A stretch of 64,000 nt of DNA from Eledone cirrhosa (taxonomy: Eukaryota): assembly GCA_964016885.1 (NCBI GenBank), contig OZ024758.1, forward strand, positions 27,156,001 to 27,220,000. Reading direction: 5' to 3'. A program made the translations under genes and the position numbers. Positions 36,769-37,635 of this stretch are shown here, piece by piece. The first letter of the stretch is position 1. Each line of letters starts with the position of its first letter. Under the pieces are notes generated by a model. The model did no database searches. It saw only the letters and a list, made by a program, of their open reading frames with translations, and was not told where the DNA came from.

Positions 36769-37635
36769 AAATGGAATAGAATGACACGAAATTTCATTTC
36801 TCACTCTTTGTACGGCACTTACTTAAATGTAAGTATGTATGTATACGTACATATATATATGTATACAGTAGTATGTATATATATACATACATGCACACAC
36901 ATATATATATGCACGTATCGGTTTACCGAGCATTTATTATAATGCTCGGTTTGTTTGTTTCAAACAAACAAACAGCCCGAATTACGCTGTACAGTGTTTA
37001 GGCAACCACGTCACCTTTTTGTTCAACACTGACACAGGAACGATGTACTAGTTTCAAGCTTATTAGCTATCGTCAGCATCGTAACCCTTCCTGCCAGATG
37101 GTTGAACGTCTGAAAGTATATACTTTCCTTATGCATATTAACGGCTGAGCAGCCTAATTTGCATATCGAGTGAGATCAGTCGGCTGGGCGCACCGAAAAC
37201 GATAAATGGATAGAATGAAACGAAATTTCAATTCTCACTCTTAGTACGGCAGTCTCTTAAATGTAAGTATGTATGTATGTATACGTACATACATATATGT
37301 ATACAGGCGTACAGTAGTATGTATATATATACATACATGTACACATATATATATGCACGTATCGGTTTACCGAACATTTATTATAATGCTCGGTTTGTTT
37401 GTTTGTAAACAAACAAACAGCCCGAATCACACCGTACAGTGTTTAGGCAACCACGTCACCTTTTTGTTCAACACTGACACAGTGTTTATAAACAAACAAA
37501 CCGAGCATTATAATAAATGTTCGGTAAACCGATACGTGCATATATATATATATGTGTGTACATGTATGTATATATATACATACTGCTGTACGTCTGTATA
37601 CATATATGTATGTACGTATACATACATATGTGTAT
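36769..37635 (-). mobile_element. Retrozyme/pLTR-like element: ~435-bp unit, partial tandem copy, then inverted arm
   Basis: 36769-37036 repeated at 37205-37482; 37485-37630 inverted; hammerhead inside. Confidence 0.8.
37040..37082 (-). ncRNA. Minimal type I hammerhead ribozyme
   Basis: ACGATG-CTGACGA-T-AGCT-aata-AGCT-T-GAA-ACTAGT-A-CATCGT; perfect 6-bp stem I and palindromic stem III. Confidence 0.9.

What the first reader, a model, noticed from the sequence alone, without database searches (positions are those of the whole stretch)
36769..37635. Retrozyme-sized monomer with tandem and inverted copies around a textbook minimal hammerhead
Seen: a ~435-bp period repeated about 1.6 times, then inverted. 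The second copy breaks off a few nt from where its ribozyme would begin (ctgacacag|, 37482). There is no ORF. Inference: the breakpoint near the predicted cleavage site suggests the template RNA end was made by ribozyme cleavage. A ~435-nt linear or circular RNA is predicted.
Basis: partly seen in the sequence, partly recalled or inferred. Interest (0 to 1): 0.75.

Follow-up and report, generated by a model that had tools for sequence, protein, structure and literature searches.

The report
Two-armed hammerhead retrozyme, Penelope footprint
This is one worn copy of a very abundant non-coding jumping repeat with a predicted self-cutting RNA motif; its copies do not break at the cut site but land as back-to-back pairs with two fixed outer ends, the same footprint that Penelope-type retrotransposons leave in this genome, so their enzyme likely copies it, probably from a small RNA circle.

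Summary
A 435-nt unit runs 1.64 times on the minus strand (36769-37482), followed by a 146-nt inverted arm, with one type I hammerhead (predicted cut 37046|37045). It is one of roughly 9,000 insertions of a non-coding family (14,400 exact 22-mer hits).

Breakpoints are uniform around the cut site (22/18/21 in three 18-nt bins, none at +1), and 93 of 100 units read through it. This locus has one ribozyme, so it cannot release a monomer; 17 of 64 sampled loci have two or more in one arm.

Of 55 classifiable two-armed copies, 51 pair a long with a short outer end (55-57 nt apart, on TA repeats), as do RT+GIY-YIG Penelope elements here (6 of 6). Both arms carry one haplotype, and the ribozyme core lacks lineage variants (0/24 vs 38/191 sites).

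Best reading: a Penelope-mobilised non-LTR retrozyme, primed twice on one template, likely circular; an uncut multimer is not excluded. No RNA data; partner element not identified. The scan already noted the same architecture for other families in this genome.

The parts
36646..36768 (.). (TG)61 microsatellite, left flank of the insertion (target side of the long end)
36769..37482 (-). Left arm: 1.64 tandem units; outer (RNA 3') end at the family's long site, inner (5') end at +9 of the second unit
36769..36823 (-). 55-nt 'tail' between the short and the long priming site; in two-armed copies it is present at the outer end of one arm only
36769..37203 (-). First unit, 435 nt, 95% identical to the subfamily-A majority sequence
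37036..37088 (-). Type I hammerhead motif: helix I with internal loop, CUGACGA core (37076-37070), helix II, GAAA, 2-bp palindromic helix III, predicted cut GUA^ between 37046 and 37045
   Evidence: activity not tested
37204..37482 (-). Second, 5'-truncated unit (+284 to +9); lacks the ribozyme core
37483..37628 (+). Right, inverted arm (+80 to +219); outer end in the family's short-end class; no ribozyme
37629..37666 (.). TGTG(TA)n right flank; a short target duplication cannot be resolved inside the microsatellite

Best explanation
This is one decayed copy of a non-coding, non-autonomous hammerhead repeat (a non-LTR retrozyme) that was likely written into a microsatellite by the reverse transcriptase-endonuclease of a Penelope-like element, likely from a circular monomer RNA. 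Shown from DNA: about 9,000 insertions; tandem units with nothing between them; back-to-back arms; two fixed outer ends 55-57 nt apart, one per arm, on TA repeats; one haplotype in both arms; breakpoints that ignore the cut site; a ribozyme core free of lineage variants. Inferred steps: (1) a source locus with two or more units is transcribed; (2) paired ribozymes cut out a 420-560-nt monomer, which is ligated to a circle; (3) a Penelope protein nicks both strands of a TA repeat, and each 3' end primes on the same RNA, one at the short and one at the long site, each ending in T-T-A that matches the target; (4) each polymerase runs round the template through the sealed cut site and drops off at random (about 0.2% per nt); (5) the two 5'-truncated copies are joined head to head. 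The break at 37482 is one such random drop-off. This copy, with a single ribozyme, is most likely inert.
For: Copy number: 14,400 exact hits of a 22-mer, 0 for the reversed control; its first 100 hits fall in 64 loci. Architecture: up to 9 full units in an arm, and no ORF-sized insert between units in 64 unbiased loci. End pairing: of 73 head-to-head junctions in 116 loci, 2 were dropped at locus edges; 51 long+short, 4 short+short, 0 long+long, 16 with an unclassified end (Fisher p 9e-12). Unbiased subset: 25, 2, 0 and 7 of 34. TA repeats lie beside 87 of 92 long and 80 of 89 short ends. Same footprint in autonomous elements: 8 of 11 long ORFs scanned carry RVT_1 plus C-terminal GIY-YIG; one family ends at two sites 63 nt apart on TA repeats with one of each in 4 of 4 loci holding both orientations, and two other families likewise (59 and about 35 nt; 1 of 1 each). 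One template: at common polymorphic sites in subfamily B, opposite arms differ at 5 of 814 and adjacent units at 6 of 689 comparisons, against 41% between loci; 16 of 45 loci share a private allele between arms, 0.3 expected. Read-through. Selection on the ribozyme: 0 of 24 core, helix II and helix III sites carry a lineage variant against 38 of 191 outside (Fisher p 0.01), while rare variants are about equally frequent (2.0-3.3% vs 2.7%). The helix I pair -34/+3 is A-U, G-U or U-G in 164 of 175 locus-level calls, and -43/+10 is A-U or G-U in 162 of 177. Literature: PLE partial tandems, inverted 5'-truncated copy and one-sided tail (PMC8557442); two internal RT start sites and priming on both strands (PMC11167929); circRNAs from metazoan retrozymes (PMC7229834).
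Against: Transcription, cleavage and circles are untested here. The partner element was not identified: the unit has no non-microsatellite homology to 51 GIY-YIG loci apart from its own copies. The monomer-circle step is not cleanly shown: in arrays of three or more units, of 99 private alleles 89 are in one unit, 8 in some and only 2 in all; L095 and L178 are mosaic; the two units of this locus differ at a common polymorphic site (+235). Subfamily A discordance within loci is higher (26 of 239 and 14 of 175; about half at one site next to the microsatellite, probably an alignment artefact). In vitro, an Anolis Penelope protein used unprocessed RNA and did not need the ribozyme (PMC11167929), and 8 of 9 Xenopus retrozymes did not cleave (bioRxiv 10.64898/2026.07.22.740005). 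The selection test rests on few related subfamilies, so its p value is optimistic. Gene conversion between arms could add to haplotype sharing.
Confidence: 0.65

Rival explanations
1. Same element and same Penelope enzyme, but the template is an uncut (or only 5'-cut) multimeric read-through transcript; no circle is involved in mobility.
For: It also gives read-through of the cut site and one haplotype per insertion if source arrays are homogeneous. Mosaic arrays L095 and L178, and alternating units in L115 and L191. Unprocessed RNA was the dominant substrate in vitro (PMC11167929).
Against: A ribozyme-made 5' end should leave some breaks at +1, and 0 of 61 are there. The ribozyme core is conserved in spreading lineages. 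Arms of 6-9 units need a way to regrow from mostly short insertions (median arms 412 and 325 nt). Two arrays carry a private allele in every unit, one across both arms (L115 7/7, L117 4/4).
Confidence: 0.22
2. The units are terminal-repeat (pLTR) fragments of an autonomous Penelope-like element not yet seen.
For: Retrozymes are related to PLE pLTRs in Xenopus (bioRxiv 10.64898/2026.07.22.740005). Most PLE insertions are 5'-truncated.
Against: In 64 unbiased loci (60 of them 6-9 kb) the unit start is preceded by the previous unit's end or by a truncation, never by an ORF-sized insert. No homology to 51 GIY-YIG loci. Only 51 loci of 10,597 GIY-YIG candidates were examined, so a rare master is not excluded.
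Confidence: 0.06
3. One reading: the template was a linear RNA whose 5' end was made by ribozyme cleavage, and 37482 records that end.
For: The break is 8 nt from the cut site. Five of 61 breaks fall at +10.
Against: Breaks are uniform across +18..-36, none at +1, and -11 and -32 hold four each. 93 of 100 units read through.
Confidence: 0.04
4. A DNA-level satellite that grew by duplication and fold-back inversion.
For: The unit is rich in hairpins and microsatellite-like sequence.
Against: It cannot explain thousands of dispersed copies, two fixed ends on TA repeats, strict long/short pairing shared with RT-encoding elements, or ribozyme conservation.
Confidence: 0.03

Closest known systems
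Metazoan non-LTR retrozymes (Cervera and de la Pena 2020, PMC7229834: passages and Discussion read; Li, Clavereau and Pollet 2026, bioRxiv 10.64898/2026.07.22.740005: parts 1-3 of 5 read, supplements closed)
   Same: Non-coding tandem repeat with one type I hammerhead per unit, AT-rich, thousands of copies, unit length inside the reported range, co-occurring with PLEs, proposed PLE mobilisation from circRNA.
   Different: The parts I read do not describe back-to-back arms, two fixed outer ends, TA-repeat targeting or breakpoint statistics. Units here are 420-560 nt with an internal microsatellite of variable length. Expression and circles were shown there, not here.
EN+ Penelope-like elements (Craig et al. 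2021, PMC8557442: passages read; Frangieh et al. 2024, PMC11167929: parts 1-2 of 4 read)
   Same: Partial tandems, adjacent inverted 5'-truncated copy, tail at one end only, bias for TA microsatellites, internal start of reverse transcription at two sites, hammerhead upstream of the 3' end.
   Different: No RT or GIY-YIG ORF. The tail is 55-57 nt rather than 30-40 nt. No sequence homology to any PLE family sampled here.
PLE hammerheads, 'min-HHR' and canonical metazoan type I (Cervera and de la Pena 2014, PMC4209133: parts 1-2 of 4 read)
   Same: Intact core, an extra nucleotide after A9, palindromic short helix III implying a dimeric active form.
   Different: It has a helix III and an extended helix I, so it is closer to that paper's canonical type than to its min-HHR. 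It lacks the G10.1-C11.1 pair that the paper calls highly conserved.

Membership tests
Non-LTR retrozyme | Type I hammerhead in each repeat unit | tested here: met
   97 of 112 unbiased units spanning the motif keep core and helix III; helix I covariation
Non-LTR retrozyme | Short tandem repeats with two or more consecutive ribozymes | tested here: met
   Met for the family (17 of 64 loci); not met by this locus, which has one
Non-LTR retrozyme | No coding capacity, no LTR features | tested here: met
   Only microsatellite-derived frames; no ORF-sized insert between units
Non-LTR retrozyme | Self-cleavage of the transcript | not testable with these tools
   Only indirect: conservation of the core in spreading lineages
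Non-LTR retrozyme | Monomeric linear and circular RNA in cells | not testable with these tools
   No reads that could show RNA ends or level were available
EN+ Penelope-like element (autonomous) | ORF with RT and GIY-YIG endonuclease | tested here: not met
   None in the locus or contiguous with units in 64 loci
EN+ Penelope-like element (autonomous) | Partial tandem plus inverted 5'-truncated copy, tail at one end, microsatellite target | tested here: met
   same pattern in RT-encoding families of this genome
EN+ Penelope-like element (autonomous) | Unit homologous to the pLTR of a PLE | tested here: inconclusive
   No homology in 51 GIY-YIG loci, out of 10,597 candidates
min-HHR of PLEs | No or vestigial helix III, short helix I, G10.1-C11.1 pair | tested here: not met
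   2-bp helix III present, helix I 6 bp plus extension, 10.1-11.1 not G-C

The most novel reading that the evidence does not exclude
A Penelope enzyme dimer primes one circular ribozyme RNA at two fixed sites 55-57 nt apart, once from each strand of a broken TA repeat, and both polymerases roll round the circle. Thousands of two-armed insertions here would then be the genomic record of retrozyme circles being reverse-transcribed by PLEs, and the one-long-one-short rule would be the general explanation of the PLE 'tail' and inverted copy.
Probability: 0.45. Interest if true: 0.68.

Novelty: new member of a known kind. Interest (0 to 1): 0.42.

Why it matters
How animal retrozymes move, and why Penelope insertions have an inverted copy and a one-sided tail, are open questions in the papers read (PMC7229834 Discussion; PMC8557442; PMC11167929). 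This family gives a small, abundant substrate with two mapped priming sites and a strict pairing rule, so the circle-versus-multimer and two-primer models can be tested with an existing in vitro PLE assay. The single locus itself is an ordinary dead copy.

Tried and rejected
Cleavage-made breakpoint: an apparent cluster at +12/+13 in the first 100 units vanished in the targeted sample. No RNA holder listed; four contig runs of unrecorded kind (three coded organisms) hold the sequence but cannot show ends or expression; neither is used as evidence. Rfam: only low-complexity miRNA-type matches on the whole window and a sub-threshold hammerhead match locally. A search for sister families sharing helix III but with a different helix II returned 222 hits; the 100 listed were almost all point variants of this family, including a third subfamily. 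Partner PLE by sequence homology: none found (the output was cut). Private-allele test for a monomer circle: inconclusive. ViennaRNA does not return the hammerhead fold as the monomer minimum and rejects the 2-nt loop of helix III, as expected for a dimer-type motif. An octamer ATGCAAAT at 37157-37164 is not above chance in the window (3 found, 5.8 expected), so an snRNA-type internal promoter is only a lead. Literature searches listed no paper on a cephalopod retrozyme or on long/short end pairing in retrozymes; only open-access papers are searched, and the supplements of the papers cited were not seen and may show such structures. Look-ups of scan notes by sequence and near this place were empty.

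Full report
Setting. The window lies in a 3.0-Gb, microsatellite-rich animal genome (G000, C19). Earlier scan notes call it octopus-like; I did not check that. Positions are counted on the RNA (minus) strand from the predicted cut, +1 = window 37045, on the subfamily-A majority unit (442 nt, -158 to +284).

Observation. The repeat is as described. 36769-37037 matches 37203-37482 at 253 of 283 columns, and 37483-37628 is an inverted copy of +80..+219. The hammerhead is on the minus strand: helix I (6 bp, extended by 3 bp past an internal loop), CUGACGA, an extra U, helix II, GAAA, a 2-bp helix III around a 2-nt palindromic loop, and GUA at the cut. By the description in PMC4209133 such a motif needs a second ribozyme to fold; it is closer to the canonical metazoan type than to the min-HHR and lacks G10.1-C11.1. 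The locus has one ribozyme, is 95% identical to its subfamily and has private changes in the helix I loop, so it is most likely inert.

Family. A 22-mer at +19..+40 occurs 14,400 times (reversed control 0). Its first 100 hits fall in 64 loci, so about 9,000 insertions carry it exactly; a third subfamily lacks it. Those 64 loci are my unbiased sample. Units are 422-556 nt (58 complete units) and occur in tandem, up to 9 full units per arm, with nothing between them. 34 of 64 loci have a head-to-head pair of arms and 17 of 64 have two or more ribozymes in one arm.

I searched for +19..+40 with non-consensus letters at -57..-61, which enriches breaks without regard to their position: 219 hits, 100 listed. 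I held 30 as loci and fetched 40 more that showed a visible break; the other 30 listed rows matched through to -40, were indels or duplicates, or were the second arm of a fetched locus, judged by eye. Of 72 rows, 4 were same-strand indels and 7 broke beyond -36. The remaining 61 fall 22, 18 and 21 into +18..+1, -1..-18 and -19..-36 (p 0.81); none is at +1, and 2 lie within 3 nt (6.8 expected). Two of the 61 (L176, L270) are probably indels; removing them changes nothing. In the unbiased set 93 of 100 units read through the cut. The break at 37482 is therefore an ordinary truncation.

What the copies do show. Outer ends fall at two sites: a long one (mode +284) and a short one 55 nt (subfamily A) or 57 nt (B) upstream. 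Both end in T-T-A, lie in predicted unpaired segments and abut TA repeats in 87 of 92 and 80 of 89 cases. Of 73 head-to-head junctions in 116 loci, 2 were dropped at locus edges; 51 pair long with short, 4 short with short, none long with long, and 16 have an unclassified end. The unbiased subset gives 25, 2, 0 and 7. This locus follows the rule (long end 36769, short-class end 37628), although its long end abuts TG rather than TA. The arms come from one haplotype: subfamily B arms differ at 5 of 814 polymorphic comparisons against 41% between loci; subfamily A is noisier (26 of 239 against 33%); 16 of 45 loci share a private allele between arms, 0.3 expected.

The enzyme. The genome holds many GIY-YIG matches (150 scored of 10,597 candidates). 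Of 11 long ORFs scanned, 8 carry RVT_1 plus a C-terminal GIY-YIG, 2 RVT_1 only and 1 GIY-YIG only at E 0.001. Their insertions have the same footprint. One family ends at two sites 63 nt apart on TA repeats, with one of each in 4 of 4 loci holding both orientations, and carries a U3-A8 hammerhead variant 143 nt before its end. Two other families show 59 and about 35 nt (1 of 1 each); a fourth was not fully mapped. None shares sequence with our unit, so the class of enzyme is indicated but the partner is not named.

Does the ribozyme matter? None of 24 core, helix II and helix III sites carries a lineage variant, against 38 of 191 outside (p 0.01; one helix II site left out because selected on it), while rare variants are about equally common. 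Lineage changes inside the motif are at N7, loop 2 and a helix I pair that is A-U, G-U or U-G. Few subfamilies underlie this, so it is suggestive.

Mechanism. A conserved ribozyme whose cut site never appears as a template end is most simply explained by cutting followed by ligation to a circle, as shown for coral, mussel and axolotl retrozymes (PMC7229834). Two starts, one per arm, fit the two internal RT start sites, nicking of both strands and predicted dimer of the Anolis PLE protein (PMC11167929). Transcription, cleavage, ligation and priming are all inferred. Against a pure monomer circle: only 2 of 99 private alleles in arrays of three or more units are in every unit, 8 are in some, some arrays are mosaic, the two units here differ at a common polymorphic site, and the Anolis protein used uncut RNA. 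I put the circle at about three to one over an uncut multimer.

Known and new. Retrozymes, their proposed PLE origin (bioRxiv 10.64898/2026.07.22.740005) and the PLE tandem, inverted and one-sided-tail architecture (PMC8557442) are published. My searches listed no description of this family or of end pairing in retrozymes; supplements were not seen. Eight earlier notes of this scan describe the same architecture for 310-, 422-, 460- and 467-nt families in this genome. Interest 0.42.

Noticed in passing
window 38053-38814: A second two-armed element of a different family 400 bp away: 214-bp perfect inverted arms with a hammerhead-like motif in each (38153 minus, 38714 plus), pointing outwards into TA repeats; the same motif occurs in L184.
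   Followed up: partly
window 2396-, 2551+, 3052+, 14371+, 19622-, 20359-, 20463+, 51693-: Eight more hammerhead-like cores of other families, two as head-to-head pairs.
   Followed up: no
window 37112-37127 and 37157-37164 (minus): A palindromic TATA-like box and an octamer upstream of the ribozyme, present in both subfamily majority sequences. Newt satellite 2 is said to use an snRNA-type promoter (passage in PMC2220036; the original paper was not read). The octamer count in the window is at chance level.
   Followed up: partly
L186 downstream of the ORF (also L181, L182, L190, L192): An RT+GIY-YIG family with a CxxC linker carries a U3-A8 core variant hammerhead 143 nt before its long end; ORFs of 938 and 844 aa are open in L181 and L182.
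   Followed up: partly
L191 about 5660-5970: A small element ending on a TA repeat whose terminal hairpin resembles the tail hairpin of this family, hinting at a shared recognition motif across families.
   Followed up: no
L115, L191, L095, L178: Arrays with alternating or mosaic units, which may record dimer templates or later local duplication.
   Followed up: partly
window 27849-28837, 35038-35178, 38995-39951, 5296-5385: Another dispersed repeat in tandem (201-nt period) and inverted arrangements, with a strong hairpin.
   Followed up: no
G000:C20, nine places between 3.5 and 4.9 Mb: Nine copies with identical scores in one region, suggesting a large segmental tandem duplication that carries the element.
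   Followed up: no
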